Made by a program: the position numbers and the translations under genes. A stretch of 61,243 nucleotides of DNA, counting the filler, from Porpidia crustulata (lineage: Eukaryota), in NCBI GenBank assembly GCA_964255105.1. It is 8 parts of 8 records of this genome, joined end to end, with 100 filler letters (N's around TTAATTAATTAA, not from the genome) between each part and the next. Parts side by side here need not be neighbours in the genome. Positions count along the whole stretch, not along the records: positions 30,705 to 38,265 come from CAXUWE010001291.1; 7 more parts are not named here. One strand, given 5' to 3'. Of the stretch, positions 32,483 to 54,680 are shown one piece after another. Position 1 is the stretch's first letter. Every line of letters begins with the position of its first letter. The notes beneath the pieces were generated by a model, which saw only the letters and a list, made by a program, of their open reading frames with translations, searched no databases and was not told the DNA's origin.

Positions 32483-33957
32483 TTAGACCATATTATCTTG
32501 CTGCGAAAACTGTCTAGTTACATAAATGTCGGTCGCTGGAGCTTCTGACCGTTTTAGCTTTTTCATGACGATGAGATTCGAAGAGTCAGTATCCGGTAGC
32601 GTTGGTACTTTCGAAGCTGTCTCGCTATCGGCACCAATGTCTTTGTAGGGACCACTTGGTTGTGACGGCAAACGTTTAGATCCTTCTGAATTCATCGACG
32701 GAAGACTGAAGGCACTACGCATAGAGTTGACAATACTGGCGATGGAAGTTTTGCGAACGAGGAAATGTAACGTGGGTAGACATGCAGCAATGATACCCAA
32801 GCCTGCTTCGATCATTGACCAGTATAGGATTGTGGAGACCGTCACTTGAGAACAGTCAGCAGTGGTAAATAGATATTGTAGAAGCAACGAACAATCAGGG
32901 TCAAACATGGTGTTAATGCCGGCATTGGTTATCTCAAAGGAAACAACCACCTTTATAACAGAAGCGATGATCGAGCTAGGTAAGGTCAGCGGATACTCTA
33001 GGTTTGAGAGCTTTGAAATATTACTGACACCGCGCCAGTCAAAAGAATACCAATAACCATCAGCTTTCTTCCAGTCGGCATATGAAGGTTCCAGATCTGT
33101 CCTAGTCAGCAACAAGATCGTCGATATGTAGATAAACATATAGTGATCTCACCACTGGCAGAGGCAGACATAGGATCATAACGTTCGTTATCAGGTCTGA
33201 TGTGACCAAGGCGTTACCAATGTTTATTGCTGCTCCGCAATATACCACTGAATCTTTGACGCTACCCCAATTGGCGGATATATGCGACCCACAAGAAAAC
33301 ATCAAACCGAAAAAGAAGCTGATCATCCATACTATAATTATTATGATAGAAAATTTGGTTGCCGAATCAAACAGAGTGTGCCTGTTCGTGACGAAAAGAC
33401 GACGATAGAAGAATGCGATGCTAAGTTTTACAAAGCCAGACGCCAGGATATTCAATATAATATAAACATATTGTACCTGTCACATCTGAGTCAATGGGTG
33501 GATTATCAGGATTCAATTCTAGACACTTACAACTCCCATAAGTCGGATTGTCGGGTTGATAATTATGAATTCTTCCTCGGGACTCAAACCTGCATCGAAA
33601 GGTGTTGGATATCCGATCGCTTTTCCATGTAGGCCTGGGAAATGATCAGCTCCAAGACCTGTTGAGATTTTTTGTCGCCAACCTATAATGAGAATTATTC
33701 CCTGCCCGATCACCATAGCCTACCGCGATCAGTCAGATAAGAAGGTCCTGCTATACTTGGCGGAGATAGGTGGAGCACACCAGAGCAGGAAGCATAAGCC
33801 AGTCATCGAAACTACTTGATGTCCTCTGCAAAGTTCTGGTGTAGATGCGCAAGGCGATGAATATTGCCCCTAGGATAGGCAGAACGATTGAAGCAGCATA
33901 AATTCCTCCTGGTGCCGCGTATGGAATTGAGAGCTGGGTGATCTGAGGGGTCGACAT
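32483..33957 (-). CDS. PTH11-like (fungal rhodopsin-domain) integral membrane protein / GPCR
   Basis: FIALRIYTR...FDDWL, AIGYPTP, GFVKLSIAFFYRRLF, SDLITNVMILCLPLP, IWNLHM and YWSMIEAGLGIIAACLPTL; about 7 exons that splice in frame. Confidence 0.85.
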
Positions 33958-34960
33958 GGCGACCTCGAGTTGAATGTTACAGTTATGAGGGCTTCAACAA
34001 GAGGCGAAACAGAAGGCAGAACAGAACTATGACCGAGTGATCAAACGTTGCAAGAAGGAATTTATGCATAAACGTGAAAGTGTCAAGACGATCTACACGT
34101 ATATCGTCAACGGTAGTCTTAGAGACAAATATGGCCAGGATTATTCGTAGGCAGATGAAATTGCCAGATCTCTCATGTGTGTCTTATGAGGGGGTGTTAC
34201 ATTTACCTACCTCGCGTAGCTCGTATAGCACTCGTATAAACCTGAGCCTGCAGAAACTGATTTACTCTTTACTGAGTCGCAACTGTCGATCCGAATCAAC
34301 AAAGACATCAGGTCGTCAAGACCGCGTACTAATGTGGTGTTGATCGACCTCAGCTCATGCAAGTTAATCATGGCTGTGCTTTCCTACTGCTGTGCAACAT
34401 GGACAACTTATCAGAATCCTGCAGTGTCGCAAAACTCTACGAGTTTGGGACGACATGGCTGATAAGGTATATCGAAAGAAACAATATTGATTATTGCATA
34501 TTAAAAGGAGCAGAACGATGATTGGATTGGCGCGGCTGGTACCTCACTACAAGGCAACCGCCCCAGCGCTGATCGCAAGGCACGTCTGCACCCGTGAAAG
34601 CATCAAGTTTAGATGCATGGCTATCTAGAGGTAAAGCCTGACTGAGATACGATGGATCCGACTTACAACTCGAATGGCCGCTGGAACCGTGAGATGGGAG
34701 AGGTGTAGATGTCTTCGTATTCAAGTGCATACCGCACGAATTTCGCCTTGTTCATGTGGGGTCCGACCTGATTTGGCCACGATCCAGTGAGATTCAGGAA
34801 GTCGACGATTTGAATACTGTTTGCTCATTCTGCACTGCTGAGCCTTCCTTGTGAGCTGATTCTTGAGTGAAACGACCTTGCCGATTGAGGATACACAGAT
34901 AGTCTGAATATGGCTTGAGAATTCACAAAGCCAACTAACCCTTGAATTAAGTCAGGGGAC

Positions 34961-34967
34961 TATAAAA
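34961..34967 (+). promoter_or_regulatory. TATA box of the small secreted peptide gene
   Basis: TATAAAA about 115 nt upstream of the ATG at 35079, followed by a CT-rich tract. Confidence 0.55.
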
Positions 34968-35078
34968 CCCTAGCCGGAGTCTCTCTCTCTATGCTTCACG
35001 AGATCTATTTATCCTTAAATCATTGCAAATTACTCTACCAAAAATTTTAACCTTCAGTCCAAGCACTGTTCATCCAAG

Positions 35079-35312
35079 ATGCGGTCCTCCATTACCTTTG
35101 CCGTCCTGATTCGCTGCATCGTCGCTCTTACTATAGCTCGTACTCTCGGTGCATATCCAGGTGAGCTACCATGTCCAGACTTCTCCCACATTTTGCTAAC
35201 CATATTTGTAGTGAGCCAAGGAGCTGCAGCACCTCTTCCCAGGGACGAAGTCACTGCTCCCGTCCAGATTGATGATACCGCGCCAGAGACTTCTCCAGGT
35301 CCATGGTTTTGA
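35079..35312 (+). CDS. 60-aa secreted peptide, candidate RiPP precursor (MRSSITFAVLIRCIVALTIARTLGAYPVSQGAAAPLPRDEVTAPVQIDDTAPETSPGPWF)
   Basis: Hydrophobic signal peptide; canonical 51-nt intron 35161-35211 (GTGAGC...GCTAAC...TAG); upstream TATA box; convergent with a DUF3328 gene. Confidence 0.7.
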   Translation: MRSSITFAVLIRCIVALTIARTLGAYPGELPCPDFSHILLTIFVVSQGAAAPLPRDEVTAPVQIDDTAPETSPGPWF

Positions 35313-35722
35313 AAAGTAATGGGATGTTTTGAGTACATGAGCTTGATGATTTCAGCTTTTGGGGGCTTATGATCAGGATAGTTGATTGATTATTTGTTCA
35401 GCATCTACAAGGACGATGAATGAGTTGTGTATGATGTATGATACGTCGGGTCAACAAGTGGAAGCTTTTGATACAGTCTTTACAACTTTTGATATCTTTG
35501 GTGGAACATTGTGGAATATTAGTCATTTGGTCTTCCATACTATCGTAATCCCTTATATCGATAATAAGGAATGGTAGCTAGCTACGAAAAGTCCTGTGAC
35601 AAGATATATATTATTCAAACTACCTCTGATTACATCGCGTGCGTCAGATATCTGGCATTATAGAATAAAACTATATCTCCGCAGCTAGAATCAGATATGA
35701 GACCCTGGCTACATCCCTTGGA

Positions 35723-36623
35723 TCAAACATCACCAAAAACTTCTCTTACCTTCGCCACATAGGGGGACCCCTCGGGACAGAACTTGTGTCTTTCCAGAGT
35801 GTCGAAATTAGGGTCATGAGGATTAGTGTAGCGCCAACAAGCTGTATGCTGCTGAGCCCATCCTTCCAGCTTGCTCCAGCTTTTGCATTGACGAAGTTGT
35901 CCGGTGCCTGATCGTCCCGGTGGTTGGAACCCCGTGTAGCGGGGGGTATCGTCAGCATAACAAAGTATATCCTGTCGCAAAGCATCGAGACAGTGCAGTA
36001 TATGGTGTGTCGGCTCACTTCGATTCTGACCTCTATCAAATTCCAAGATGGTAGATCGAATGGTTTTCTGGTTAATAATCAGCTGTTTCTTCGGTGGAAT
36101 ACAGGAACAGGAAAGGCTCGGGTTAACGTACCAAGCAGTGCATACTATGGAAACCGTTTAGGAGGTACAAGCCCTTCTCCTGGTCCCATGGAAATCGCTG
36201 AGAGACTGGTAATCCCATCGCTGCTGCGTAAGAATCACTCAGCGCGACCGTGCCATTGTCGATACTGATATTCTCCCACAGCTGGTCCGCGACTGTCTCG
36301 TCCTCCCCAAAGTATGGGGACATGGACGTCCAAGCCACCGCTGAGTCTTGTACCAGATGTGCTATTTAGGTGTCAGTCAACAATATCAGCTCTGACTTCA
36401 TGTAAATATTACCATACGTAGAAGAAGCGTCACTACCGCTTGAAGCGTGTGGACGTGTGAGGATCAATAGGAGATTCAGGATTGCAGAGCAGAGTAGACC
36501 TGCGAGCAGTGTCCTATCGCATTTGACTGTGCGGCGAGAATACTCCTGCTCTTCTGGGTTTTGGCTCTCGATGGGTAGCAGTGTATATTCTCGTCCTTTC
36601 ACGGGACTCATTATGGTGTTCAT
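35723..36623 (-). CDS. DUF3328/UstYa-family oxidase, 3 exons
   Basis: N-terminal single TM anchor, two HxxHC motifs (FHSMHCL and HHILHCLDALRQDILCYADDTP), and RQCKSWSKL...W. Confidence 0.92.
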
Positions 36624-37281
36624 TCCTGATGCTCAATGTAAAGAAGAAAATAAGTTATTAATGAAAGCGTGTAGTTGTTTATGGAAAGATGACAATCAAA
36701 AGTCTAGCTGAGAATAGATAAGCATGGAGTATGACTGTACAGCATGACACATTTTTCCATAACCAATCTGGCTGATACATGAAACAACTGATACCTACCT
36801 TTATCGATCAAAAGTGCCTTGACCCTGTCATGCACGACGAGTTCATTATTGCGGCTGAGCAACGACGTGCATACGGCTATAACGAAGTCTATGCAAGAGG
36901 TAGAATCTGCAAGTCAAGCGGTTTTGACTGTTGCCAAGGTTGATCTATCGTACAGGTACCTGTACAATATCAACTGGAAGTGGCATAAACGCCAAGGCCG
37001 GATCGGGCCACCTCCACGCTTCAGAGTGGTGTACCGGAATAATTCTTGTGCATAAGCTTTATTGCATTCTATGCATGATGAGAGTGTACCATCACTGATG
37101 ATGGGGGCTGAAGAGTTACTGTCTCAGGGGTTTCGTCGCTTATCCAATTGCGCTCCACTCTCTCTGCGTAAACAACCATGACCACATCCAATTGAATCTA
37201 CGTTCTCTGTCTAGCAATGTCTACTTGTTTGTTCTATGTTTCTGGTCAACTTTACTGCGAATCGTAAAAATAGCTTAAGAA

Positions 37282-38098
37282 ATGGGGTTCACCCAAAGCC
37301 TCGTTCCGTGACTCTTGGGGACCGTTATAAGTGTCTTCGTTTGCAGTGAGATCTTTGTCCATGTGAAGCTACAACAAGCGATGTGCAGAAATGGCTGCTT
37401 GCCGCCCCCAAAGTATGCTCACAAAGACCCAATGTTAGGGCTGGACATGTTCTTCGATTAGTTCAAGGCCATGGAACGTGGTGATACTGGAGCAACGGAG
37501 CGAGAACGCTTCCGTAAGTACGGGACAACATTCCAAGCCAATTCATGGGGAACGACATGTATCCATACCATGGATGTCACGAACATACAGGCCATACTGG
37601 TGCAATTATTTGATAATTTTGGCGTGGAGCCTATGAGACTTCACGTTGGCCAACCGTTCATCGGCAAGGGTGTTTTCTCCACAGATGGTCCTTACTGGCG
37701 ATTTTCTCGGGAGCTCATCAAGCCTATGTTTGCCAGAGCGCAAGTCGCAAATCTAGATGCTCTTGACGTTCATCTCAGTCGTATGATGGATCGCATTCCA
37801 CACGATGGATCAACGCTCGACCTTCAGGCTCTTCTTAAACTCATGATTTGTTGGACCTTGCTCTCGTTGTCTCGACATACTAGCAAGCTAAATAATCTGG
37901 TCTGATCTAGTTTCTCGATCATTCAATAGAGTCGATGTTTGGCGTGTGCAGAGAAACGTTGCTGGCCGAATCTCCCGGAGCTCACAGCAACGAGCTCCTG
38001 ACAACCTTCGACGCTGCTCTACGGGGACTGGGTAAACGCATACTCCTAGGTAGACTGCAGATTATTATTCTCTGGGACAGATCTTATAACCAGCTAGC
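37282..38098 (+). pseudogene. Cytochrome P450 (CYP52-clan-like N-terminal half), pseudogene
   Basis: One frame gives a TM anchor, GCLPPPKYAHKDPMLGLD, KYGTTF, NIQAIL and GVFSTDGPYWRFSRELIKPMFARAQV. In-frame stops occur at 37309 (TGA) and 37459 (TAG), the intron donor near 37846 reads AT instead of GT, and no heme motif is present. Confidence 0.85.
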
Positions 38099-38265
38099 TG
38101 TTAGCGGCTGCTTACCAAGGTATCAGAGTTACGCCTAGTAGGCGTACCCCTCAGGATGAGCGCCTTGGTCGCCATGAGCATTGAGCGCTTATAGCGATCA
38201 TAGCGATCAAAGCGATCATGATGAACACCTTGGTCGCCATGAGCATTGAGCGCTCATAGCGACCA
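38099..38265. repeat. Repeat-containing terminal segment, possibly an LTR start
   Basis: Begins TGTTAG where P450 similarity ends. Contains two copies of CCTTGGTCGCCATGAGCATTGAGCGCT (period about 65 nt) and three near-copies of TAGCGATCA; the contig ends here. Confidence 0.5.
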
Positions 38266-38365
38266 NNNNNNNNNNNNNNNNNNNNNNNNNNNNNNNNNNN
38301 NNNNNNNNNTTAATTAATTAANNNNNNNNNNNNNNNNNNNNNNNNNNNNNNNNNNNNNNNNNNNN
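38266..38365. other. Artificial contig spacer
   Basis: N-run with TTAATTAATTAA. Confidence 0.99.
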
Positions 38366-39351
38366 AGCAAATTCCACACACATAAATTATTACATCACAT
38401 CAAACAACAAACAAGGTAGGTAGCCGACGATTCATCTCTCCGTCGCTCAAAAAACTACCTTTGACCTAAAAAGTCACCGTTCCAAGAAGTATAACCAACC
38501 GCACCATCCCCACAACTCTCAAACCACCGCAAAACCCCCGCTAAGATATCCCATCCATCCTCCGTCCATATCCTCCTTTCTGTCTTCGAGACACGTGGGA
38601 ACAAGGATAAGAGGTGAATAGATTTCCAGGGGGGTTCGTTCGTGGTCGTCAACAAACTGTGGTTCGCGCGCGCGGTCGGGTTTCGCCATACAGATTATCA
38701 TCCCTCGCTCTCTCTCTCTTGAATCGTGGAAAAAAAACCGGACAAAGTCATCAATCATGGACAAAAGAGAATCGCGTCCGGCGAAGAGGGAGTCGCCGAG
38801 GCCAAGCTCGATTGTTCCTTTATTCCCGCCCTCTGTGACGAGGGGGAGACGTGCGGAAGAATGAAGGATCGCGAGATCCGGGGGTTTCTTTTTTCAAAAT
38901 ATAGAGGTAGAGCGGTAAAAAAATTGGAAAAGAGTGGTGGGGGGTTTGCAAAATCCACTGTTTTCCTACCACGGGGTAAAAGTCCGCAAAAAGGGGGCCG
39001 TTATATGCCGAATGTTATTAGAAAGATTGAGTGGAAGGAGGTCGCGATTCCAGTCACCGAAAAGATTGGGGGTAGGCCGACCTCGAGGCATATACTGCTG
39101 GGGGAAGAAGAGGAGAGGGTTTCGAAAGCAATTTCGTAAGGAAAAGCAAGGAAAAGCTCGCCGGCTTCTTTGATCCTTCCGGAGGATGTGGGTCTCTCGA
39201 TCGGGCTGGGTGTTTGTCATTCTGGGGTGGAGAGTGGAATGGTTTCCCTGGTTGCTTAAATCTCAAGTTCTTTTTTTTCTTCGGTTTTCGGTGCTCCTAA
39301 TTGGGGTTCGCTCGGGGATCTGTGGGGCCGTTGGGATGCGAGAGTATGTGT

Positions 39352-40379
39352 TTAGATGGTTTTGGGAGATTTGTTGTTACTGGTGGATATTAGTATATTC
39401 TAGACACAGCCAGAGACGGTTTGTAGACATACCTAATCTCCACGATATCATCCACATGGTTACACATCGCAACGAACAGATCGAAAAACCTAGGATTACC
39501 CATCAGCGAGATGATCAATATCGAAATGAAACGTACTAACAATTTGCTCCCACCAATCTCCATTTCCATCTGCATGGTTCCGCTCCTCTTGAAAGTCTTG
39601 CGACTTCGGATAATCAAGGCAAGGTAATGAGCGCGGAGCCTGGAGTCCGTGTCCGGCGTGTTATTATACGCAAAGCGAGCCGATGCCATGATGACATCAA
39701 CCTGGATTCCCGACTGAAGACCTTGCTTCCGAAGAGACAAGCGCTTCAATTCGTCCAATCCGAACTTCTCGGCCGTGCAGTAGATGGCGGTGTCTTTGAG
39801 CAAGACTCCACCCACACCGTTATGATAAATTGTAGACTCGACCGATCCGCGGCCACCGAGGTTATGTGGATCCTTCGCATCTTCGAGCTCCCAAGAGTTG
39901 CGACGCTTGTTGTGCAACAGGCGTGGGTAGTAATCACCCTTGTAGAGGTATTCGAGGACGCAGGAGAAGGTCTCGGGCTCTCTATCGTATACTTATTAGA
40001 TCGCTTCATAGATATAATCCCAGCTCCAGAATAACATACTCGTCAAGCAGCTCCACCCTCTTCATAGAGCTCTCAAAGAACTGGCCTTTGAGAGCGGCCT
40101 TGAAGAAGGGAGATAAAGAGAGGACGTCCTCGTGCGCAGCGAAAAGACGCTGGTCACGTCCCACGATCAAAGTGACAATGGGGCTTGTCAGGGTACTGTG
40201 GACACAGCTCTTGTCAGACTTCCCAGTCTACAGAGTAGATGCGCCTTGGCTTACCTGCCCGTTGGCGGACTATCCATTCTTTGCTGCATCTTCAACTTTG
40301 TTTGCTCCCGGAAAGACCTCTTGCTCGACTTGACCGCCTTGCCCGCACGATCCTTTGCATGAAAGGAGCGTTTGAACAT
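39352..40379 (-). CDS. Conserved fungal BTB/POZ-domain protein, multi-exon
   Basis: Spliced: LTSPIVTLIVGRDQRLFAAHEDVLSLSPFF, EPETFSCVLEYLYKGDYYPRL, IYCTAEKFGLDELKRLSLRKQGL and FFDLFVAMCNH, ending ...SPKTI*. Confidence 0.85.
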
Positions 40380-41416
40380 CTTGACCGAGTTCGAGTATTA
40401 TAGCTGTCAGACACCGAGGGTTCGCAAAGATTGACTGATCAACGGCTGAAGAGGCACCGCGATTGTTGTAAATGAGCGTAACAAGTGGGCGGTTCAGAAT
40501 TGAATTGACGCTTCGCACGCACGTTGCATGTAGAAGACCTTCGGAAGCCTTTCCAGGACAACCCCTCTCTCTTCAATCGAGGAACTCGAAGTTTCTCGAA
40601 AGAAGATCAAGGAGAACCCAGAGGGAGGCTCTGCGCGCAGGAATCTGCTGGAGAGATTGACCCGCGGTGGTGTGTTCGGCCGGCTCTAAGGGAGAAGCGT
40701 GAAGAAAGAGAAGAGAGGACGAAGCTCGCGGGGCATTTTGTAGGCAGCGCGTGCGACGAATGTAGTCATGTGACTCGGCCTATCTCAAAGATAGGATAAG
40801 ATGATTGGCAGCGCATGGCGAAGACGGCATGGCGTCTCTGCTGATTGGGTGGTTCAAAGCTATGAGTCGCAAGGGCTGCGTCGTTGCCTGGCGGCCTGAT
40901 GTTGATAAATAGACGGAAGCACACTAAACCTAGAAATGACTAATCTTATAATGTCCCCATACTCCATTCAACGGTCTCTCCTACAGCGTCCCCCTTCATC
41001 ACATTATCGAAAAGGTCTGGCTTTCCAAAGCAAAACACGCAAAGAAACACGAATTCCAAAGCATACGTTATCTCAATCGAGAAATATCAAAATTGAAGGC
41101 TAGCACGTTGATTGTCATGCCAACAATAAAGCCAGTTACCTACGCATCTCACAGCAAGCTGGTGAACTACTTCGGGATTCGCTAAAGTGCAGTATCTACG
41201 TAATGATCAGACTAATTGAAGTTATCCAAGGCTCCTCGAAACCTGCACTTCCTAGATCTCCTTGTGCTTGCTGTCTTTTCGTTAATTTCGTGCAGAAGAT
41301 GAGGAATTTCAAAACGCTTTCTCCCTTTCTTATTCGTGCCTGCCATAGAACAAGACTAAGGGGCTTGAAAAGTCTAGAACTAGTAGTGGCAAATCAAATC
41401 CTTATAGCAATGTACC

Positions 41417-43496
41417 TTAAGCCTCATCGTAAATCTGAAATGATGCTGTATTCACCTGAGTAATCTCGCCATCACCTTCTCCCTCCCCGATATCCTCCCC
41501 CGTGTCCGGCGCGGTTACCGACGTTGGTTGTCGCATCTCCGCCAACTTCAGAAACATATCTCTGGCTAGCCCAGCGTTTTCGTCGATGAGGTCAAGCACT
41601 TTGGTGGTTTCCTGTTCCAAGAGCTCTCGAAAGTGGTCAGCAAGGTATTGCACTATGAAGAGACGCAAGCCGTCAATTTCAGACGTTTCCTCTCTGAACA
41701 TGAGCCGAAGTACAGATAGGAACTCGAAAGCGGGATACGGTTGTGATGCCTTGAGTTTTCGGAATGCAAGGCTTTGGAGCCCGGGTAGCTCGATCTGTTG
41801 AGCTATGGAGTGGACAATCCCGCAGCGTAGGGTCTCCTGGTTTCGCCGCTCCTCCAAATCAACGACAGCAGGACCGAAAATTTCCCAACCGTGGCCGGAA
41901 AAAAGAGTCGGTTCATATTCATTGCGGTCGAGGTATTCTATGACAGGTCCAAAGTCCTTGGCTGAGAGTGACGACAGCACGGGGGCCATGACATAGAAAC
42001 CGATCTTGTCGTTGAAATTCATCAAGCGAGATAGCAATGGGCTGGCTTCGAGGCTACTTTTCTTTGTCCTGAATTCTTCATGTGGATTTCCGACATAGAT
42101 CACAACATTATCCATGCTGCCGAGTCTTGGTCAGTAATTACTAATTATAAAGGGGGATGATGACTTGCTCGATGTGTAAGCTCTCAGGTCCGGACTTTCT
42201 GGACACTTTCGGACTGGACCTGTGAAGCCTTTGGGAAGGAGTTGCAAGCCCCACAAGAGAAGACGAGAAAGGACCACGAATTCTTGGCTTATTGGCCCTC
42301 TGTTCACACACGGAATCTGAAAATTTGCCCGATGCGACTGATCCTGCTAATGTCGTATCGTCTGATGCCTCTTTCTTGATCTTTACCCTTTTGCTGTCTC
42401 TTTCTGTCAGGAGCGGCTCAGGCTCCTCATCGTCTACATTCCCATTATCGTAGCCGGGCCCAAATCCGGGAGGCCATTTGAACGCTTGACCTGAGTTGGT
42501 ATCATCTGAAGTTTCTCTCCTATGTTTGCTGCCGATTTCTTGTACTAAATCTGACTCATCTGCCAGTTGCGCTGCCCACAACTTATTCTTCCAATAAGGA
42601 AGTCTATTCCATTCAAACTCCAAAATACCATCCTGATAGGCTTCCTTAAGCTTTTGATTCGGCGTAGTATCTCTAATAGCGAGCGCTAATTGAAAGTCTA
42701 ACGACTTGAGATGCTTTCCAGAAGCCCAATTACTAGTATTGCAAAAATCAGCCTAGAGTTCATCCAGTTGACCGACCTTCATTCTGAAGAACAACTGTGC
42801 ATGTCTAAGAGCGCACTATGTCTCGGCTTCTGGAGGACTTACAGTTCTAAAGTGCCAAGATATAAAACTGGAAAGCAGAACTGTCCGTTGAGGTAGCCAC
42901 CATATTGGAAGACATCAGGCCCAGTGCCGTCTGAGACCCGCGCGTTCTCTGACCTTGGCCCTCTAAAGTATCTATGCACGATATCTTTATCACAAATGAC
43001 GACCGGCCAGTCTAGCTCGCCGTTTTGGGATACAAGCCAATACTCTCCGGGCCGTGCGTCGAGTTTTCCAGGAGTATATTTATGTTTCGAGGTTGTCTTG
43101 GCAGGAGGAGGAAGATTTCTATAGCTGAATTTGGCCATCCTGTCACTAAAATCAGTGGACATATCTCAGAGGGCGCCGTGAGTAGACTCCTCGAGTGTCG
43201 GTGGAAACTCCTTCACTGGTGTCTTGTACGCCGAAGTACTGAAGTAGTGTTCAGACAGGCCAGTAAGCTTAGATCTATAGATCAGCTTTAACAAGATCCA
43301 TTATGGATTGGCCAGGTGAATAAATTGTTGTCTTAAAGGCAAAGAACTTTGAGGCTGAGATGACACCACCTAAGTAGGTATTAACGCAAGGAACAAATCC
43401 CAATGTAGAGTATGGACAAATTGTATCGGGACGGTCTTTCAACTTTCTTGAAAATTGGAATCGTAACTGAAGAAACCAAACCCCCAGGCTCCTCAA
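41417..43496 (-). CDS. Hypothetical multi-exon protein with a C-terminal BTB-like domain; 5' end uncertain
   Basis: Collinear ORFs 42839-43162, 42141-42623 and 41417-42115; the last has VVIYVGNP...DFGPVIEYLDRNEY...IELPGLQSLAFRKL. Confidence 0.55.
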
Positions 43497-44295
43497 CGGA
43501 ATCGCAAAAAGACAGCCAAAACCTCAATTCCCCCGAGAATCCAAAAGTGAGCACGGAATAACACAAAGAAACTCCTCAATCTGAGAAATGGTCCGAACGA
43601 TGTAAGGTGGAAGAAACGAAATGGATCACTTCGGCGTCACTGATGTGTCAAGTGAAGTTCTGCTGAGTAGTGATTTTAAAGAAATATGCTGGTCAGTAAA
43701 GCTTTCACATATATATCAAAAGATTGTAGATCGCAAGGTGGGAAAAACTATGAGCGCAAAGTTTGGTGGACGAGTATTGAGAACACGAGCATGGGAGGCC
43801 GAGAATTAGGAGGTCAAGTGTGTGATGAGTCCTGGATGCATGCAAAGTGGAAGCTGACTTGGTCTGAAGATGGAGAGCATGAGAGCTAGTAAAGGAATCA
43901 TTGCCGAGGAAATAGAATTGCGGTGGGTGCAATGTGAATGATATGCATGCGCGGAAGGATTTGAGAATATAAGCCTGTACAGTGAGAGTTCGATTAGTGC
44001 AACCGTAATTGAGGTTGAAGATAGAAACATCTTTGTAGGTAACGAACGCAAGTCGAATGACCAAGCGATAGGGATGACTGCTATACTAGACCTACTTGCC
44101 TTCGGACAACTAATCAAGGGTTCCACCTGTCATATATTTATACCTACTTGAGGTTCCGCTCCATCGAAAATGCCACGGGCGACGGCACATTGACTGGTAT
44201 CAGCACGTTTCACATTATTCTTGTAGACCTCATGCGCCAAATCCCCAGTGCACTCGCTGTTCTAACAAGCCCAAGGGTTTGAACCTGTATGAGCC

Positions 44296-45384
44296 TTATC
44301 TGTCTGAATGATCGCCATAAGCAATTCGGACCATCGACCTTCGTAAACGATGTAGGCCTCGTTGAGAGAAGAAGACTGTCATGGTCAGGCATATCAAGCT
44401 GATGTAAATCATTACCAATATACTTGAACCTCTGTAATTGACATCGAGGTATTTGTAGACGTATTCTTTCGTTATTAGGCGCCCAAGAGCTGTCCATGCG
44501 AAGTATGAAAGGCAGAGAAAGAGTATGCCGACCACGTGTGGAACCAAGGGCTGCCGAAAGTGTCAGGCAATCTCAATCAAGTTAAGCATCGAGGAAGAGA
44601 GTATACCTTCTGCTTTCGAACACTGCTCAGCAACATAACTTCCAGGATTGCGATCAAGGTATTGACCGCGTTCATGCTGGCAAGCACAAAGATTTGAAGT
44701 GGCTTAACTGGAAAGGCTGTGATGCTTGCAGATTGGCGAGCCCGAGCTATAACGTATGGCAAGCGGCCATTGGACTTGTTGGCAGTATACGCCAGCGCTG
44801 GCCGATAAAAGGTATGACTCGATTGCACGAATCTCGGATTCGAGCGAAAGAGAACCAACCAGAAGATGATCGTGACTACGGGAGGTACTATAACAGCAGT
44901 CGTGTAGAAAAGGGAGAACATGAACCGTCTCTTGGAATTGATGTCATTGGCAGTTGGAACTGCAAAGAAGCCTCGCATTTTGCCAGCGATTCCACTGGCA
45001 GGTTGTCTGTTTGGCTTAAGGATGTGTTGCAATGTCCAGTACTAGAAGAAAAGAAGTCAATGAAAATCCTCTCTTATGTAAGCGATTGAGACTCGCGGAG
45101 GTAATCCAGTAGTAGATCATCTGAATTGCGAAGCTGATGTTACCAATCTCGAATGCGGAGAATGCTCCTGTCTTCTTGGGACCGATTTCAAGATAGAGCT
45201 GGAATCCGAATACAACAGAAATGTAAAGAGCAATGAGCATTCGCGCCGCCAATAGAGCCTTTTGAGGGAAGAAGCGCCATGGAGAATGGCACACTTGGAA
45301 GAAGATAGGTTGACCGTGAGTAGGCATGGCGGAGGTTGGCAAAAGAGGAGTGCTCTCGGCCTTAGAGGACAGGAAAGGAAGCAT
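44296..45384 (-). CDS. Multi-pass membrane protein (FAR-17a/AIG1-like)
   Basis: Exons with FFQVCHSPW, SFAIQMIYYWIT, FSLFYTTA...VTIIFWLV, NTLIAILEVMLLSS and YFAW...YVYKYLD. Confidence 0.65.
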
Positions 45385-45926
45385 TGGTCCAGCAATGCAA
45401 CTTTGTAGGTTTCGAGTTGTTATTTGACGCAAAAGGTCAAAGGATCACGAAAGCTGTTTAATCTCTCTGAATGAAGAATGATGATATGAGTAACTGAGAA
45501 TATCCGAGGTTCTGGGAAGAATGACATAGCGCAGAAAGGAGATTAAAGTATCAAATAGAACAATGGTATTGGTGCATACAAAAGTTCCTACTTTGGCAGG
45601 AACGATTTACCGTATGACTACAGAGCAAGCCGGATGAAAGTCCAGATAAATGTGCCCACTCGGCAATGGATACGTTGTGCCATCTTCATCAAGAGAAGTT
45701 TTCGAAAAGGGAAGCTAAACGAAGTCAATGGTCTGTTGAACTCATATCATTGCTTGCAACTCTGTGAGGAAAGTTAGATCTCGTTCGCTGAGAGGACTAC
45801 GTGTACAATTTTGCGGTGTCTTCTCGTACCTGTAAACGCGGAGGCCGTTACCTCTAGTTTTGTATTTACGACGCTAAGTATCGTCAGCCCTACACCCATC
45901 CGCATCGCGAAACGTCTCTTCACAAC

Positions 45927-46026
45927 NNNNNNNNNNNNNNNNNNNNNNNNNNNNNNNNNNNNNNNNNNNNTTAATTAATTAANNNNNNNNNNNNNNNNNN
46001 NNNNNNNNNNNNNNNNNNNNNNNNNN
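45927..46026. other. Artificial contig spacer
   Basis: N-run with TTAATTAATTAA. Confidence 0.99.
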
Positions 46027-46411
46027 ATTATAGGCTTAGTCTAGTCAATTGATATAGTTCACTACGACCCCTCACAGTTACAGTCAGTCATTCGATGTGA
46101 AGCAATTAAATCACAGTCTCTGAGCAATCGATAGCCTGAAATCGAACAGCGCATGTCCTCCCTTCTCTATTCTCTGAAAAGGCGTCAGCAAGAACGATAT
46201 CGAAGGAAGACGTTGGCTTGCTCATCGTTCTTGACGGTGTCATTAGAATATTCGTATAGATAGAACATAGTAAAGATAGAATTTAGACCATACGGGAAAG
46301 TTCCGAGGGGCGGCGCAATTGAAACTAAGATAAAGACTTGATTCTTTATTCAGAAGTCTAGACATGAAAGAAGTGCAAGGCGCAGATGCCTGTTTGTGGG
46401 GGCCCTTTATA

Positions 46412-46710
46412 CCTCAGGCGGTCTAAAATTTTGGGATAAAAACTAATATATAGCTCTTCCGCGATCATAATATCATATTTTGAAGTAGAACACTGAACAT
46501 AAACGTGACATTTAAATATTTTTAAATTTGCACGTCGTAAATTGAAACATATGCCCGTTATTCTGAATATTATCTTCTTTTAAAAATGATGCATTGTGAA
46601 ACGATAAATTGAACGTGGTTTTTGAAATCGATACTGCTAGACAAAATATGACTTAGAGGACGGGATACCTTCTACTGACGCGTTGACTAAAAATTTTAGA
46701 TCGCCTGAGG
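46412..46710. mobile_element. MITE of about 300 bp with short TIRs and a TA target site
   Basis: TTTATACCTCAGGCGGTCTAAAATTTT (46406-46432) matches AAAATTTTAGATCGCCTGAGGTATAAA (46690-46716) as an inverted repeat with 1 mismatch in 27; the interior is AT-rich. Confidence 0.75.
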
Positions 46711-47129
46711 TATAAAAGGTTCCGAGCCATCAAGCCTGCATGAAATAGCGCGGCTAAGAGACAACATCAAAATTGATCACCAACCATGCGCCTTGACGCC
46801 GTGAATGTTCAGTCTAAATCATCCATTACCTCTAATTTTATCCGGCCCTCCGTTACAACCTCAAGATCAGGTCTCTGTAGCTGCGATTTAGTGATACTAG
46901 TTCTGCTTGGTCAAGGCTGAGAACATGTTGGGGCTGTGTATCCGAGCAGCTTTCAGTCTCTAACCCAAAGATGGAGATCTTCGATCATTCAAATCCAGAG
47001 CCTTGCGATATAATCCCATTACAAGACGGGTTTTGTTCAAATCAGAACTATAAAAGACGGGCAAATGCTGCTCAATTTTTGTGATCTATTGACAAATGCA
47101 TATATACGATCATTATTCCCTCGACCGTG

Positions 47130-50591: not shown

Positions 50592-51746
50592 TCATACAGT
50601 TGCATGTGACGTGCAGTCATCACGAACAAATGGCTCTTCGCCTTTCTTCATCCGCCACCGATTCGTCGCCTCTAATGCCCCCGGCAACCCTTTAAACAAC
50701 CACCCCCATTTCCTCAGAAACCCTTCCGACATTTCCCACCCCGTGATATTCCAGGGCGGCGACCACGCAATGATACCGCGTCGCTCGATCTCGTCGTCGG
50801 GAAAGCCCTCGTACAGCCCGCCGATGCAGTCGGCCCACAGCTCGTCCTCGTCGAAGATGCCGGCGGCCCGGATCAGACGGTCTCGTCCTTCGGGACACGG
50901 GAACAGGTCGATCCAGTCGCCGTGCGGCACCGTTTGTTGAAGGGTGGTGGGCAGGAGTGTTGAAGGGAGTAGTTCGGGCTTGATAGGGTAGGGAATGACA
51001 TGGATTACTTCCTCATCACAGTCGAGCGGCGTGACGAGGATGCCCGAGATTAGAGTGCGGTTGACGGCCAGGGCGCGGAGGGCGTTGAATTGGAGGAGTG
51101 TGATGAGGTGATCTGTACAGAGGGGAAAGACAATGTCGAACTGCTCTTTTCTAGATTTATCTGGCAGCAAGGGATCTCTCGCATTGTATAGTTGCTTGAT
51201 ACGGGATGCTGAGACGGTGAAGACGGATTGCTGCTCAACGTCCCAGCATTCCACCAGCGCTTCTGATTTGATCAGTGTCCCGGTTGCGGCACTGAGTGCT
51301 TCGGCTTTCTTTGCTAGGGCTATGCGTTTTCCTGCTGGACTATTAGTTTCGATAATTGGGTACCCCTTGATCGGACTGGTCCTGACTCCTGATTTGGACG
51401 AAAGAGAAAACAAGGCCTTACTTACGGTATGCCCTTGTGTTGAGTCTAGTCTGTGCCCGTCTGCGTGCTGCGGAATCCTTGGTCCCAGTCCAGTCATCTT
51501 CCCTGCTTATCGCCTGTACGCGGTGAGCAAGTCATGTCGTCTTCATGATTGAAGGCGGCCTAGTACGTACCTCGGCCAATTGTGGCATTGACGCGAGTTG
51601 AATGCGTGGTGCTGTTGAACTTGCAGACTGATACGTACTAATCATGATGCTAGCGGACGTTGAAATTGCGATGATGATGAAATTGGTGATGAATGATGTA
51701 AGCTTCTTCAGGCTGGCCAAGGCGGTTTATGTAGCCTGCTCACCAT
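50592..51746 (-). CDS. bZIP-like / DUF3425 transcription factor; start uncertain
   Basis: Spliced basic region EDDWTGTKDSAARRRAQTRLNTRAYR; C-terminal DHLITLLQFNALRA, LLPTTLQQTVPHGDWIDLFP, WEMSEGFLRKWGWL and TNRWRMKKGE. Confidence 0.85.
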
Positions 51747-52311: not shown

Positions 52312-53335
52312 ATGACTTTTCATATCGACGCTCTCCCCGATCTCAAGGGCAAAGTATTCATAGTCACAGGTGGGAATTCCGGCATGTAAGTCTCCCCTCT
52401 CCCCTCTCATCACGAAGCCCGAATCGCTGATCTCACCAAACCACAGAGGCTACTACACCGTAGCCCATCTAGCAGAACACGGCGCCCACGTTTACATGTG
52501 CGCCCGATCCCCAGAGAAGGGCACAGCAGCGATCGCCAACATCAGGAAAATGCACCCCTCAGCCAACATCGACCTCCTGCAAATGGACCTCATGGACCTC
52601 ATCAGCGTCGTCGCGGCCGCCAAGCACTTCCTCACCCTCGAAACAGCCCTGCACGGCTTGATCAACAACGCAGGCATCATGGCGACGCCCTTCGAAATGA
52701 CCAAAGATGATCATGAGGCTCAGTGGCAGACCAACTACCTCGCGCACTGGGTTTTGACGGAGCATCTGCTTTCTCTGATGCTGCGGACCGCCAAGACGCT
52801 TCCTCCCGGCAGCGTGCGCATCGTCAACCTCACTTCATCGGGCCACTTGGGCGCACTCAAGGGCGGCATCAATTTCAAGGACCTGTCGCTCAAGGATAGC
52901 GGCCCGTGGCCGCGATATGGGCAGAGCAAGCTCGCCAACATTCTGCACACCAAGACCCTGCACAAGACGTACGGCCCCGACTCTCCCAGTGCGCGGAACG
53001 AGGAGGGCGAGATCTGGGTTTCGTCCGTGCATCCAGGTCCGGTTGAGACGAATCTCGCCACGTCGGTGAGGGAGTCGGGATCGGGCATGATGAGTGTTTT
53101 CTCGGTCTTACGCATGTTTGGATTGATATGGCCTGCCGATAAGGGATCGTGGACCAGTCTGTTTTGTGCGGCGAGTCCGGATATGAAGGCAGAGCAGAGC
53201 GGCACGTATTTCGAAATTTTCCGGCGATTTGGGGAGCCGAGGTGGCAGAGCGGTGCGGCGAAGGATGGGAAGCTTGCAGAGAGGTTGGAGGAGTGGACTG
53301 CGAGGGTGATGAGGAAGGAAGGGTGGATTCGGTAA
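52312..53335 (+). CDS. Short-chain dehydrogenase/reductase (retinol dehydrogenase-like)
   Basis: PDLKGKVFIVTGGNSGIG across intron 52386-52446; LINNAGIM, YGQSKLAN (YxxxK) and VHPG. Confidence 0.92.
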
Positions 53336-53686: not shown

Positions 53687-53852
53687 GCATTGTGGGTTAT
53701 GTTGAGTTGCTGGGATTTGGTGTAAGGTGGGGAGAAAGGAAGGGGTTGAGATCGGAGATTGAAGATCTACAGGAGGGCTGTGGAGCGGAGCGGGGCAAAC
53801 CGAGTAGACCCTTCGCGTCCTCGAGTCTCTCAAGCAGCGCATAACACTTCCA

Positions 53853-54680
53853 ATGGCATCGATCAGGGCCAATGCGCGCAAAGTCATCTGCATCGGTAGG
53901 AATTACGCGTATGTCTCACACTTCCTTTTCTCGTCTCGTGCATCAAAGACTAATTACAATGCTAAGAATACAAGGGATCACATCAAGGAGCTCAACAACG
54001 TCAGGCCCAAGAAACCTTTCTTCTTCCTGAAACCGCCTTCGTCGATTCTGCCCCCGAAAAGCGGACCAGTGCTTCGCCCGCGAGGTGTTGTTCTACATTA
54101 TGAGGTTGAGCTGGCGCTGGTTATGGGTAGGGAGGTGAAGGATTTGGATGAGAGGGATGAGAAGCGGGCGATTGATGCTATTGATGGTGGGTGGTATATT
54201 CATGGCCATTTTCATGAGGCCCTGAGAATAAGTTTAGGGCGAACTAAGAAAAGAGCAGCCTACGCCCTCGCGATAGACCTCACGGCCCGTAATCTCCAGG
54301 ACGAAGCCAAGAAAAAGGGCCTCCCCTGGACCATCGCTAAGGGCTTCGACACCTTCTGCCCCATCAGTGATCCCATATCTAAACGACACATTCCAGATCC
54401 TCACGACGTGGATCTGATGCTCCATATCAATGGCCAGGCGAAGCAATCGGACAGCACGGGCTTGATGCTATTCCGCATTCCGAGGATATTGAGCGAGATA
54501 ACCCAGGTCATGAAATTGGAGAGAGGTGATGTGATACTTACAGGAACTCCGAAGGGTGTCGGGGAGGTGAAGGCTGGGGAAAGGATGGCAGCGGGTTTGA
54601 GTGTGGGGGGACACAAGGTGGAGGCAATCGACGTAGAGGTAGAAGAGAGACAGGGGATGTATGAGTACAAGGAAACATAG
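53853..54680 (+). CDS. Fumarylacetoacetate hydrolase family protein (FAHD1/Fmp41-like) with two in-frame introns
   Basis: KVICIGRNYA, PFFFLKPPSS, LHYEVELALV, GLPWTIAKGFDTF and GDVILTGTPKGVG. Confidence 0.92.
   Translation: MASIRANARKVICIGRNYAYVSHFLFSSRASKTNYNAKNTRDHIKELNNVRPKKPFFFLKPPSSILPPKSGPVLRPRGVVLHYEVELALVMGREVKDLDERDEKRAIDAIDGGWYIHGHFHEALRISLGRTKKRAAYALAIDLTARNLQDEAKKKGLPWTIAKGFDTFCPISDPISKRHIPDPHDVDLMLHINGQAKQSDSTGLMLFRIPRILSEITQVMKLERGDVILTGTPKGVGEVKAGERMAAGLSVGGHKVEAIDVEVEERQGMYEYKET

What the first reader, a model, noticed from the sequence alone, without database searches (positions are those of the whole stretch)
35079..36623. Candidate single-core fungal RiPP system: 60-aa secreted peptide convergent with a DUF3328/UstYa oxidase
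Seen: a two-exon gene with a TATA box and a canonical 51-nt intron encodes a signal peptide plus ...AAAPLPR-DEVTAPVQIDDTAPETSPGPWF*. It ends about 410 bp from an intact DUF3328 gene that has both HxxHC motifs and an N-terminal membrane anchor. Established: DUF3328 enzymes (UstYa/b, AprY, PhomY, VicY) oxidatively cross-link or modify aromatic residues of secretory-pathway precursors in ustiloxin, asperipin-2a, phomopsin and victorin, and those precursors are Kex2-cleaved tandem repeats. Inference: this precursor has no KR-delimited repeats and no Tyr in the acidic tail. It has a single acidic leader and a C-terminal Pro/Trp/Phe core, so repeat-based mining would miss it. It could yield a new Trp/Phe-modified peptide.
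Basis: partly seen in the sequence, partly recalled or inferred. Interest (0 to 1): 0.85.

Follow-up and report, generated by a model that had tools for sequence, protein, structure and literature searches.

The report
Small secreted peptide gene beside UstYa oxidase
A lichen-type fungus has a tiny secreted-peptide gene tail-to-tail with a copper oxidase gene of the kind that makes cyclic peptide toxins, and the same pairing recurs in distant fungi, so the peptide is probably the enzyme's raw material, though no product has been shown.

Summary
A two-exon, 60-codon gene (35079-35312, +) has a signal-peptide-like start and a canonical 51-nt phase-1 intron. It ends 410 nt from the stop of an intact three-exon UstYa/DUF3328 gene (36623-35723, -).

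Sequence searches found no relative of the peptide, and no RNA run was listed. Gene context gives the support. Of 16 distant UstYa loci (41-51% identity), 14 carry a small signal-peptide gene in the same convergent position, with a phase-1 intron just after the signal peptide. These 14 collapse to 4 lineages. One further locus could not be examined and one was negative. The same search rule hit one other place in about 166 kb-strand of control DNA. In one lineage the intron length varies (94-106 nt) while the 63-aa product stays intact in 10 of 10 loci.

A Pth11-like membrane protein gene lies within 3 kb in all 4 lineages that have enough flank. Two relatives have short internal repeats, and one has KR/RR sites.

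My reading: a real, fast-evolving precursor family tied to this UstYa clade, so a dikaritin-like RiPP variant with a single core. The chemistry is unproven. The scan noted a similar case in another genome (e1-7565689).

The parts
34961..34967 (+). TATAAAA, a TATA-like box 118 nt upstream of the small gene's ATG
   Evidence: Read. No difference to the sister-species contig is listed between 34957 and 34970. This is a 7-nt match only, so it is weak.
35079..35160 (+). Small gene exon 1: Met plus a signal-peptide-like region, 27 codons plus 1 nt
   Evidence: There are five nucleotide differences to the sister species: three synonymous and two conservative (Ile to Leu, Ile to Met).
35161..35211 (+). 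51-nt phase-1 intron (GTGAGC...TGCTAAC...TAG), in frame and free of stops
   Evidence: An intron of the same phase at the same place (just after the signal peptide) is found in all four related lineages. Splicing was not observed directly.
35212..35312 (+). Small gene exon 2: Pro-Arg site, acidic proline-rich tail, C-terminal Trp-Phe, TGA stop
   Evidence: No indel against the sister species. Five of 33 residues differ in the sister species.
35313..35722 (.). 410-nt spacer between the two convergent stop codons; presumably holds the 3' UTRs
   Evidence: The equivalent spacers in relatives are about 175 to 612 nt.
35723..36067 (-). UstYa exon 3 (with stop): second HxxHC motif (HILHC) and four conserved Cys
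   Evidence: Pfam PF11807 at 46.2 bits. Alignments A1 and A4..
36068..36131 (-). UstYa intron 2, 64 nt (GTACGT...CAG), phase 0
   Evidence: The orthologue alignment runs straight across this position.
36132..36361 (-). UstYa exon 2: first HxxHC motif (HSMHC) and the conserved QRFPWD block
   Evidence: Pfam PF11807 at 28.2 bits. Alignments A1 and A3.
36362..36412 (-). UstYa intron 1, 51 nt (GTAATA...CTGAC...TAG), phase 1
36413..36623 (-). UstYa exon 1: cytosolic N-terminus and the single transmembrane anchor (residues 38-56)
   Evidence: The sister species has a compensating -1/+1 indel pair at 36570 and 36575.
32483..33957 (-). Fung_rhodopsin (Pth11-like) multi-pass membrane protein gene, divergent from the small gene. 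It is the third conserved member of the neighbourhood.
   Evidence: Pfam PF20684 at 49.9 and 25.7 bits. Exon matches to P0014 and P0015. The Met was read. A gene of the same family lies near the pair in L012, L013 and L004.

Best explanation
The 60-aa product is a real secretory-pathway propeptide and the substrate of the adjacent UstYa enzyme. That makes it a short, single-core version of a dikaritin-type fungal RiPP precursor.

Proposed course, all inferred:
1. The signal peptide takes the peptide into the ER.
2. In the Golgi or endosomal lumen it meets the membrane-anchored, disulfide-linked, two-copper UstYa dimer.
3. UstYa uses O2 to oxidise one or more side chains of the proline-rich tail by hydroxylation, desaturation or cross-linking.
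4. A kexin-type protease cuts after the Pro-Arg, possibly followed by exopeptidase trimming.
5. A small modified peptide from the C-terminal 22 residues is secreted.

Shown here: both genes are intact, and the pair and its gene structure are conserved across deeply diverged UstYa loci.
Inferred: expression, splicing in this species, the enzyme-substrate relation, the cut site and the chemistry.
For: 1. UstYa is complete. It has the Pfam match, both HxxHC motifs, a TM anchor and four C-terminal Cys. These are the features that PMC12435403 (passages) ties to copper binding and dimerisation in CctR.

2. A metagenome scan with the UstYa family returned 16 loci.
- 14 of them have one small gene on the convergent strand, 175-612 nt beyond the UstYa stop. 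It has a signal-like start and a phase-1 intron of 51-106 nt right after it.
- These 14 make four lineages: ten near-identical JAABU loci, L013 and L005 (identical to each other), L004 and L001.
- The UstYa proteins of these lineages are only 41-51% identical to each other and to the window's.

3. Control. The uniform rule hit 2 ATGs in the window's 122.5 kb-strand (one is the candidate). In 48.7 kb-strand of four loci it hit only the four targets. That is one off-target in about 166 kb-strand.

4. In the JAABU lineage:
- exons have 5 variable columns of 192 and no gaps;
- the intron has 8 of 107 variable and 16 gapped;
- the flanks have 31 of 423 and 60 of 410 variable;
- intron lengths are 94, 95, 105 or 106 nt, yet all 10 loci give an intact 63-aa product.

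5. Relatives look like precursors. L001 has three copies of an SPD-x-LER unit with RR sites and a KR. L013 has two [KR]-Y-x-Y-[ED]-R units.

6. [quoted passage not shown]

7. The sister species keeps the ATG, the frame and the TGA with no indel.
Against: - The peptide has no detectable sequence relative in 5.77 billion clustered proteins or in 1.84 billion representatives by HMMER. tblastn against the related loci gave nothing better than E = 0.21. Homology of the five small genes therefore rests on position, orientation, intron phase and a weak MAFFT alignment.
- Against the sister species the ORF shows no clear purifying selection. 7 of 77 residues differ, 5 of them in the 33 residues of exon 2. 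The upstream non-coding stretch read in the same frame differs at 16 of 119 (my count from the alignment).
- The search rule was fixed after I had seen the first examples. It was loosened once to admit L001's GTAGGT donor.
- One locus, L016, gave no such gene in the 690 nt left after the UstYa match.
- The tail has no Tyr, which is the usual cross-link partner in ustiloxin, phomopsin and asperipin.
- No tyrosinase, methyltransferase or transporter lies nearby.
- DUF3328 enzymes also work on non-ribosomal peptides, for example CctR on cyclochlorotine.
- There is no expression evidence.
Confidence: 0.5

Rival explanations
1. The small gene is real and conserved beside UstYa, but it is not the enzyme's substrate. 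It would be an unmodified small secreted protein, such as an effector or a pheromone-like peptide, that only shares regulation or an old synteny block. The UstYa would act on some other peptide or metabolite made elsewhere in the genome.
For: - The conservation is one of position only. The mature parts cannot be aligned with confidence, and secreted effectors also evolve fast.
- The tail lacks Tyr.
- DUF3328 enzymes can act on NRPS products (PMC12435403).
- Exon 2 changes at the neutral rate against the sister species.
- Umemura 2020 (PMC7329392, abstract and passages) reports that most Kex2-processed repeat proteins are not accompanied by DUF3328 genes, so the two gene types often occur independently.
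Against: - No NRPS or other core gene was found among the ORFs scanned: 26 chosen ORFs between 23.5 and 47.9 kb and 82 ORFs of at least 75 aa, taken from the 124 such ORFs between 31.4 and 61.2 kb. Nor was one found in the 4-kb flanks of L012, L013 and L004.
- Tight convergent pairing kept across UstYa proteins only 41-51% identical is hard to explain without a functional link.
- Repeat units with basic flanks in L001 and L013 are typical of precursors.
Confidence: 0.3
2. The three genes form a peptide-signalling module. UstYa matures the secreted peptide into a ligand that the neighbouring Pth11-like seven-helix membrane protein senses, or transports.
For: - A Fung_rhodopsin gene lies within about 0.7-2.3 kb of the pair in 4 of 4 lineages with enough flank: the window, L012, L013 and L004.
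- These proteins are 43%, 40% and 32% identical to the window's. The window's own second paralogue at 12.3-12.8 kb is 32% identical.
- The family has 37-95 copies per Peltigera genome (bioRxiv 10.64898/2026.06.16.732702, passages). Chance adjacency in four lineages is therefore unlikely.
Against: - The orientation and order of the membrane protein gene differ between lineages.
- No ligand is known for any Pth11-like protein, as far as I recall.
- Two copies in this 61-kb window show the family is locally dense.
- L004's copy is no closer to the window's than a paralogue is.
- It could just as well be an exporter or a self-protection protein.
Confidence: 0.12
3. The small ORF is a chance open frame in the 3' flank of UstYa, and the look-alikes in other loci are also chance.
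For: - No sequence relatives.
- No RNA evidence.
- A neutral-looking substitution rate against the sister species.
- Stop-free frames of this length are common.
- The search rule was set post hoc.
Against: - One off-target in about 166 kb-strand, against one hit in each of five 1.0-1.1-kb target zones.
- All five introns are phase 1 with canonical donor, branch and acceptor.
- In 10 of 10 JAABU loci the intron changes length by non-multiples of 3 while the product stays intact, and the exons are three to four times less variable than the flanks.
Confidence: 0.05

Closest known systems
Asperipin-2a cluster of Aspergillus flavus (aprA precursor, aprY DUF3328, aprR, aprT). The gene names are recalled. 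The DUF3328 cyclase role is cited in PMC10840396 and PMC12435403 (passages).
   Same: It is a minimal cluster in which a single DUF3328 enzyme acts on a secretory-pathway precursor, and there is no tyrosinase.
   Different: AprA carries many Kex2-flanked repeats of a Tyr-rich core. Here there is one non-repeated tail without Tyr, and no reductase or transporter gene next to it. A Pth11-like membrane protein gene is the conserved neighbour instead.
Ustiloxin and phomopsin dikaritin clusters (UstA/UstYa/UstYb; PhomA/PhomY)
   Same: A UstYa-family enzyme with two HxxHC motifs and a TM anchor, and a precursor with a signal peptide. Some relatives (L012 type, L004) also carry two UstYa paralogues, like ustYa and ustYb.
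   Different: Those precursors have 10 or more KR-delimited repeats of Y-x-I-x cores and need a tyrosinase and methyltransferases (PMC7329392 and PMC12048977, passages). None of these features is present in the window.
Lichen UstY clusters, Clans R1 and R2 of Parmeliaceae (PMC12048977)
   Same: These are lichen-forming fungi with DUF3328 signature genes carrying two HxxHC motifs. No repeat precursor was found, and the authors raise a single core peptide as one possible reason (passages).
   Different: That study names no precursor. Its clans carry tyrosinase, O-methyltransferase and other accessory genes. 'Lobaria' does not occur in its main text. Here a concrete precursor candidate with a defined gene structure is proposed.
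Cyclochlorotine hydroxylase CctR (DUF3328) (PMC12435403)
   Same: It supplies the mechanistic template: a membrane-anchored, lumenal, disulfide-linked homodimer with a two-copper site formed by HxxHC(x)nHxxHC, dependent on O2 and electron input (passages). All the sequence features are present in the window's protein.
   Different: CctR's substrate is a non-ribosomal cyclic peptide. No NRPS gene was found among the ORFs I scanned.
Kex2-processed repeat proteins (KEPs; Umemura 2020, PMC7329392)
   Same: Small secreted fungal precursors. 22% of them are accompanied by DUF3328 genes, at a mean distance of about 3 genes (abstract).
   Different: KEPs are defined by repeats between Kex2 sites. The window's peptide has none and would not be found by that method. 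Only relative L001 approaches the definition.

Membership tests
UstYa / DUF3328 (Pfam PF11807) copper oxidases | Pfam PF11807 match above the gathering score | tested here: met
   46.2 bits on exon 3 and 28.2 bits on exon 2, against a cutoff of 25. Orthologues P0001-P0010 all carry PF11807.
UstYa / DUF3328 (Pfam PF11807) copper oxidases | HxxHC(x)nHxxHC motif | tested here: met
   HSMHC at residues 142-146 and HILHC at 169-173 of the spliced 261-aa product. These positions are invariant in alignments A3 and A4.
UstYa / DUF3328 (Pfam PF11807) copper oxidases | N-terminal single TM anchor with a lumenal C-terminal domain, and C-terminal Cys for disulfides | tested here: met
   The best 19-aa hydrophobic window is residues 38-56 (mean Kyte-Doolittle 2.27). 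Cys lie at 183, 208, 224 and 244 and are invariant in A4. Topology and disulfides are inferred by analogy with CctR.
UstYa / DUF3328 (Pfam PF11807) copper oxidases | Copper- and O2-dependent catalysis | not testable with these tools
   Needs biochemistry.
Dikaritin-type fungal RiPP cluster | A DUF3328 gene close to a precursor gene whose product has an N-terminal signal peptide | tested here: met
   The two genes are convergent and 410 nt apart. The signal-like N-terminus was judged by a hydropathy rule only, because no SignalP was available.
Dikaritin-type fungal RiPP cluster | Precursor with repeated core peptides delimited by Kex2 (KR/RR) sites | tested here: not met
   The window's product has no KR or RR and no repeat. 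There is only one Pro-Arg. Relatives L001 (3 repeats, RR and KR) and L013 (2 repeats) come closer.
Dikaritin-type fungal RiPP cluster | Tyr (or another aromatic residue) in the core, used for ether cross-links | tested here: inconclusive
   There is no Tyr after the signal region. Trp-Phe sits at the C-terminus. Which residues are modified is unknown.
Dikaritin-type fungal RiPP cluster | Accessory tyrosinase, methyltransferase or transporter genes | tested here: not met
   Pfam found none in 26 chosen ORFs (23.5-47.9 kb) or in 82 ORFs of at least 75 aa, taken from the 124 such ORFs between 31.4 and 61.2 kb. L013 has MFS genes nearby. The literature notes that functional clusters can lack these genes (PMC12048977).
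Dikaritin-type fungal RiPP cluster | A modified peptide product that depends on the oxidase | not testable with these tools
   Needs co-expression and LC-MS/MS.
Kex2-processed repeat proteins (KEPs) | Three or more repeats separated by KR/RR after a signal peptide | tested here: not met

The most novel reading that the evidence does not exclude
The conserved trio is a self-contained peptide-signalling unit of filamentous ascomycetes. It comprises the UstYa copper oxidase, a ~50-90-aa secreted propeptide with a phase-1 intron after its signal peptide, and a Pth11-like seven-helix membrane protein. The oxidase would turn the fast-evolving peptide into a modified ligand that the adjacent Pth11-like receptor recognises. 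This would give the first ligand-receptor pair for the largest and still orphan fungal GPCR-like family, in a lichen symbiont.
Probability: 0.1. Interest if true: 0.9.

Novelty: new variant of a known kind. Interest (0 to 1): 0.62.

Why it matters
UstYa/DUF3328 genes are common in fungi, including lichen fungi. For most of them no precursor is known, because mining relies on Kex2-flanked repeats. [quoted passage not shown]

This work gives a concrete, searchable signature for a precursor family that repeat-based tools miss:
- on the convergent strand, 0.2-0.6 kb past the UstYa stop;
- a signal-peptide exon of 22-27 codons plus 1 nt;
- a 50-110-nt phase-1 intron;
- a short acidic, proline-rich exon.

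If the enzyme-substrate link holds, it opens a set of small UstYa-modified peptides with non-Tyr cores, and a minimal two-gene system for studying DUF3328 chemistry. The recurrent Pth11-like neighbour adds a testable link between peptide natural products and an orphan receptor family that is expanded in lichens.

Tried and rejected
- Whole genome: none is held for this window.
- Word-based protein search with the 77-aa ORF found only its own cluster.
- Full HMMER scan of 1.84 billion representatives found itself plus P0013. P0013 is a tandem-repeat junk ORF whose score sums four repeats, so I rejected it.
- ESM Atlas: best score 0.80, to bacterial lipoprotein clusters, which is noise level.
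- tblastn of the peptide against the 16 loci and the rest of the window: nothing better than E = 0.21.
- No RNA holder was listed among 3 runs, so expression and splicing could not be examined.
- Laid contigs: only 40 of 215 differences to the sister species were printed, so I could not compute dN/dS for exon 2. I used the read-through translation P0012 instead.
- Synteny by locus-tag numbering: the search with the Fung_rhodopsin exon returned no Lobaria, Pseudocyphellaria, Pycnora or Trapelia protein. I therefore could not tell whether those genomes have a gene between it and UstYa.
- Genome-contig scan for UstYa: 56 pattern matches, none confirmed.
- No tandem repeats or KEP-like ORFs near the pair.
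- Complex prediction (UstYa exons 2 and 3 as two chains in two copies each, with the 32-aa exon-2 peptide as partner): 'no answer', score 0.02 against a mark of 0.34, controls not run. This is no evidence either way.
- P450 as a cluster partner: rejected. Only an N-terminal fragment remains.
- The idea that the C-terminal Pro-Gly-Pro-Trp-Phe is a conserved core: the C-termini of the five lineages differ. MAFFT places the window's S-P-x-P next to L013's S-P-x-P and L001's repeat unit, but that alignment of proline-rich sequence is weak.
- Literature: full-text searches found no paper describing a UstYa gene paired with a non-repeat ~60-aa precursor or with a Pth11-like gene. The library lacks most subscription journals. 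I did not open supplements.
Full report
**What is there**

The window is fungal. Its closest protein relatives come from lichen-forming Lecanoromycetes: Lobaria immixta 80%, Pseudocyphellaria aurata 77%, Trapelia 72% and Pycnora 64% identity to the last UstYa exon.

On the minus strand, 36623-35723 holds a three-exon gene.
- Exons are 36623-36413, 36361-36132 and 36067-35723, with introns of 51 and 64 nt.
- The spliced 261-aa product has no internal stop.
- It aligns end to end with those orthologues.
- The two large exons match Pfam PF11807 (UstYa) at 46.2 and 28.2 bits, against a cutoff of 25.
- The product has HSMHC (142-146), HILHC (169-173), four further Cys (183, 208, 224, 244) and one hydrophobic anchor (38-56).
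- According to the CctR paper (PMC12435403, passages read), these features make up a membrane-anchored, lumenal, disulfide-linked homodimer with a two-copper, O2-dependent active site.

- TATAAAA lies at 34961-34967.
- Exon 1 is 35079-35160.
- The 51-nt intron is 35161-35211 (GTGAGC...TGCTAAC...TAG, phase 1).
- Exon 2 runs to the TGA at 35310-35312.
- The intron is in frame and open, so a 77-aa unspliced reading also exists. It sits in the public protein collection as an unnamed ORF (P0011).
- The stops of the two genes are 410 nt apart.

**Direct tests of the small gene gave little**

- It has no Pfam family.
- It has no relative among 5.77 billion clustered proteins.
- Among 1.84 billion representatives it has none beyond a tandem-repeat junk ORF.
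- The ESM Atlas gave nothing.
- No RNA run was listed.

A sister species (run X2) has the same locus.
- It differs at 210 letters and 11 gaps over 34700-36873.
- No indel falls in the small gene.
- A read-through translation of that species (P0012) shows the ATG, the frame and the TGA kept.
- 7 of 77 residues differ: 2 in exon 1, 0 in the 17 intron codons and 5 in the 33 residues of exon 2.
- The upstream non-coding DNA read in the same frame differs at 16 of 119 positions (my count from the alignment).
- This one comparison therefore shows no purifying selection on exon 2.
- Only 40 of the 215 nucleotide differences were printed. Five of them fall in exon 1: three synonymous and two conservative.

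**The evidence that counts comes from distant UstYa loci**

A pattern scan of metagenome contigs with the UstYa family gave 16 loci. Their UstYa proteins are 41-51% identical to the window's and to each other over the last exon.

I first saw a small convergent gene with a clean signal peptide by eye in L012 and L013. I then wrote a rule:
- an ATG;
- a hydrophobic 10-mer with mean Kyte-Doolittle of at least 2.0 in the first 30 residues;
- a donor GT[AG]NG[TC] after codon 20-30;
- a 45-110-nt intron with CT[AG]A 8-40 nt before a [CT]AG;
- a product of 45-100 aa.

Applied to the 1.0-1.1 kb beyond the UstYa stop on the opposite strand, the rule finds exactly one ATG in each of the window, L012, L013, L004 and L001. 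The intron is phase 1 every time.

| Lineage | Intron length (nt) | Product (aa) | Spacer between stops (nt) |
|---|---|---|---|
| Window | 51 | 60 | 410 |
| L012 type (ten JAABU loci) | 94-106 | 63 | 385-407 |
| L013 (= L005) | 51 | 70 | about 175 |
| L004 | 69 | 49 | about 180 |
| L001 | 68 | 92 | about 612 |

Control: on both strands of the whole window (122.5 kb-strand) the rule hits two ATGs, the candidate and one at 3549(-). On the four loci (48.7 kb-strand) it hits only the four targets.

Caveats:
- The rule was set after I had seen examples.
- It was loosened once, to allow any fourth donor base, so that it would admit L001.
- L005 is 100% identical to L013.
- The ten JAABU loci are 95.5-100% identical to each other. 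The 14 positive loci therefore make four lineages.
- L014 ends inside UstYa and cannot be judged.
- L016 has a UstYa match with no detectable last part and only 690 nt left, and it gave no hit.

Within the JAABU lineage the gene behaves like a gene.
- Exon columns are 5 of 192 variable, with no gaps.
- The intron is 8 of 107 variable, with 16 gapped columns.
- The flanks are 31 of 423 and 60 of 410 variable.
- Intron lengths are 94, 95, 105 and 106 nt, yet all 10 loci give an intact 63-aa product in four variants.
- In L013 and L001 the unspliced frame runs into a stop, so the intron is needed there.
- By shared position, orientation, size and intron phase, I take the five small genes to be one family, and the window's intron to be real.

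**What the family looks like**

- The mature parts are acidic and proline-rich. They have no Cys and cannot be aligned with confidence.
- MAFFT suggests a shared (D/E)-x-V-x-x-P block, followed by a hydrophobic-x-hydrophobic triplet and a later S-P-x-P block. I treat this as tentative.
- L001 has three copies of an S-P-D-x-L-E-R unit with RR, plus a KR near the start of the mature part.
- L013 has two [KR]-Y-x-Y-[ED]-R units.
- The window and L013 have Pro-Arg at the place where L001 has Lys-Arg. [quoted passage not shown]
- The window's copy is therefore the non-repeated member of a family that elsewhere looks like a very short Kex2-type precursor.

**Neighbourhood**

- Pfam scans covered 26 chosen ORFs between 23.5 and 47.9 kb and 82 ORFs of at least 75 aa, taken from the 124 such ORFs between 31.4 and 61.2 kb. 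They show no NRPS, PKS, tyrosinase, methyltransferase or transporter near the pair.
- Upstream lie housekeeping genes (NMD3, MT-A70, a mitochondrial carrier).
- The P450 next to UstYa is only an N-terminal fragment.
- The sister species' contig stops matching at 36873.
- A Fung_rhodopsin (Pth11-like) gene at 32483-33957(-) is divergent from the small gene.
- A gene of the same family lies within about 0.7-2.3 kb of the pair in L012, L013 and L004. L001 is too short to tell.
- These copies are 43%, 40% and 32% identical to the window's. The window's own second paralogue at about 12.3-12.8 kb is 32% identical.
- With 37-95 such genes per Peltigera genome (bioRxiv 10.64898/2026.06.16.732702, passages), adjacency in four lineages is unlikely to be chance. 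The local density in this window (two copies in 61 kb) tempers that.
- L012-type loci and L004 also carry a second UstYa paralogue. L013 has MFS and GFA genes.

**Mechanism**

The best-supported reading (about 0.5) is that the peptide is a secretory-pathway propeptide oxidised by the neighbouring two-copper UstYa in the Golgi or endosomal lumen. It would then be cut after Pro-Arg and released as a small modified peptide.

- Shown: intact genes, and a conserved pairing and gene structure.
- Inferred: everything downstream of that.
- The main rival (about 0.3) is a conserved but unmodified small secreted protein.
- A signalling reading that involves the Pth11-like protein is possible (about 0.1).
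- A chance ORF is now unlikely (about 0.05).
- A complex prediction gave no verdict and counts for nothing.

**Comparison with what is known**

- The enzyme is a full member of UstYa/DUF3328.
- The pair works like a dikaritin cluster, closest in economy to asperipin-2a. It fails the classical precursor definition of KR-delimited repeats with a Tyr core, and it lacks accessory genes.
- The 2025 lichen survey (PMC12048977, passages) found UstY clusters without precursors and raised a single core as one explanation, but named no candidate.
- Umemura 2020 (PMC7329392) mined repeats only.
- Four full-text searches found no description of this pairing. The library misses most subscription journals.
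I did not test it.

**Verdict**

- This is a new variant of a known kind.
- Interest is 0.62. It offers a concrete, searchable answer to where the precursors of orphan UstYa genes may be, and a minimal system to test. There is no expression or chemistry yet.

Noticed in passing
window 37312-38135 (+): A cytochrome P450 gene is represented only by its N-terminal ~220 residues (Pfam p450 at 22.3 bits, just under the 22.8 cutoff). No heme-Cys motif or I-helix motif was found in 36900-41500 on either strand, so it is probably a relic or pseudogene.
   Followed up: partly
window 36873: The sister-species contig (run X2) stops matching here, about 250 nt upstream of the UstYa ATG, and continues with unlike sequence. 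The conserved block therefore ends just past UstYa.
   Followed up: no
window ~12028-12830 (-): A second Fung_rhodopsin (Pth11-like) gene lies here, 32% identical to the one beside the peptide gene. That makes two copies in 61 kb.
   Followed up: partly
window ~38100-47000: About 9 kb with no Pfam match in any of the 38 ORFs of at least 75 aa that I scanned there (chosen from the 124 such ORFs between 31.4 and 61.2 kb). GC is 0.44-0.49. It may be degraded or lineage-specific sequence.
   Followed up: no
window 34491-35460 (+), protein P0012: The public protein collection holds a 320-aa 'protein' from the sister species. It is a read-through translation (TGA read as Trp) of non-coding DNA plus the small ORF. 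It is an annotation artefact, but it served here as a proxy for the sister sequence.
   Followed up: yes
L012 1894-2706 (-) and L004 3084-3938 (+): The related loci L012 (and its nine near-identical copies) and L004 each carry a second, more distant UstYa paralogue beside the first, as in ustYa/ustYb clusters.
   Followed up: partly
L013 1-2921 (-) and 5549-6352 (-): Locus L013 has MFS transporter ORFs upstream of UstYa. It also has a GFA-domain (glutathione-dependent formaldehyde-activating enzyme family) gene between the small gene and the Fung_rhodopsin gene.
   Followed up: no
window 36570 and 36575: The sister species has a 1-nt deletion and a 1-nt insertion five bases apart in UstYa exon 1. 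The frame is restored, which fits selection keeping the reading frame of the cytosolic N-terminus.
   Followed up: no
window 50595-51506 (-), 52364-53332 (+), 53808-54677 (+): DUF3425, short-chain dehydrogenase and fumarylacetoacetate-hydrolase-family ORFs lie together about 15 kb from the pair. I did not examine any link to it.
   Followed up: no
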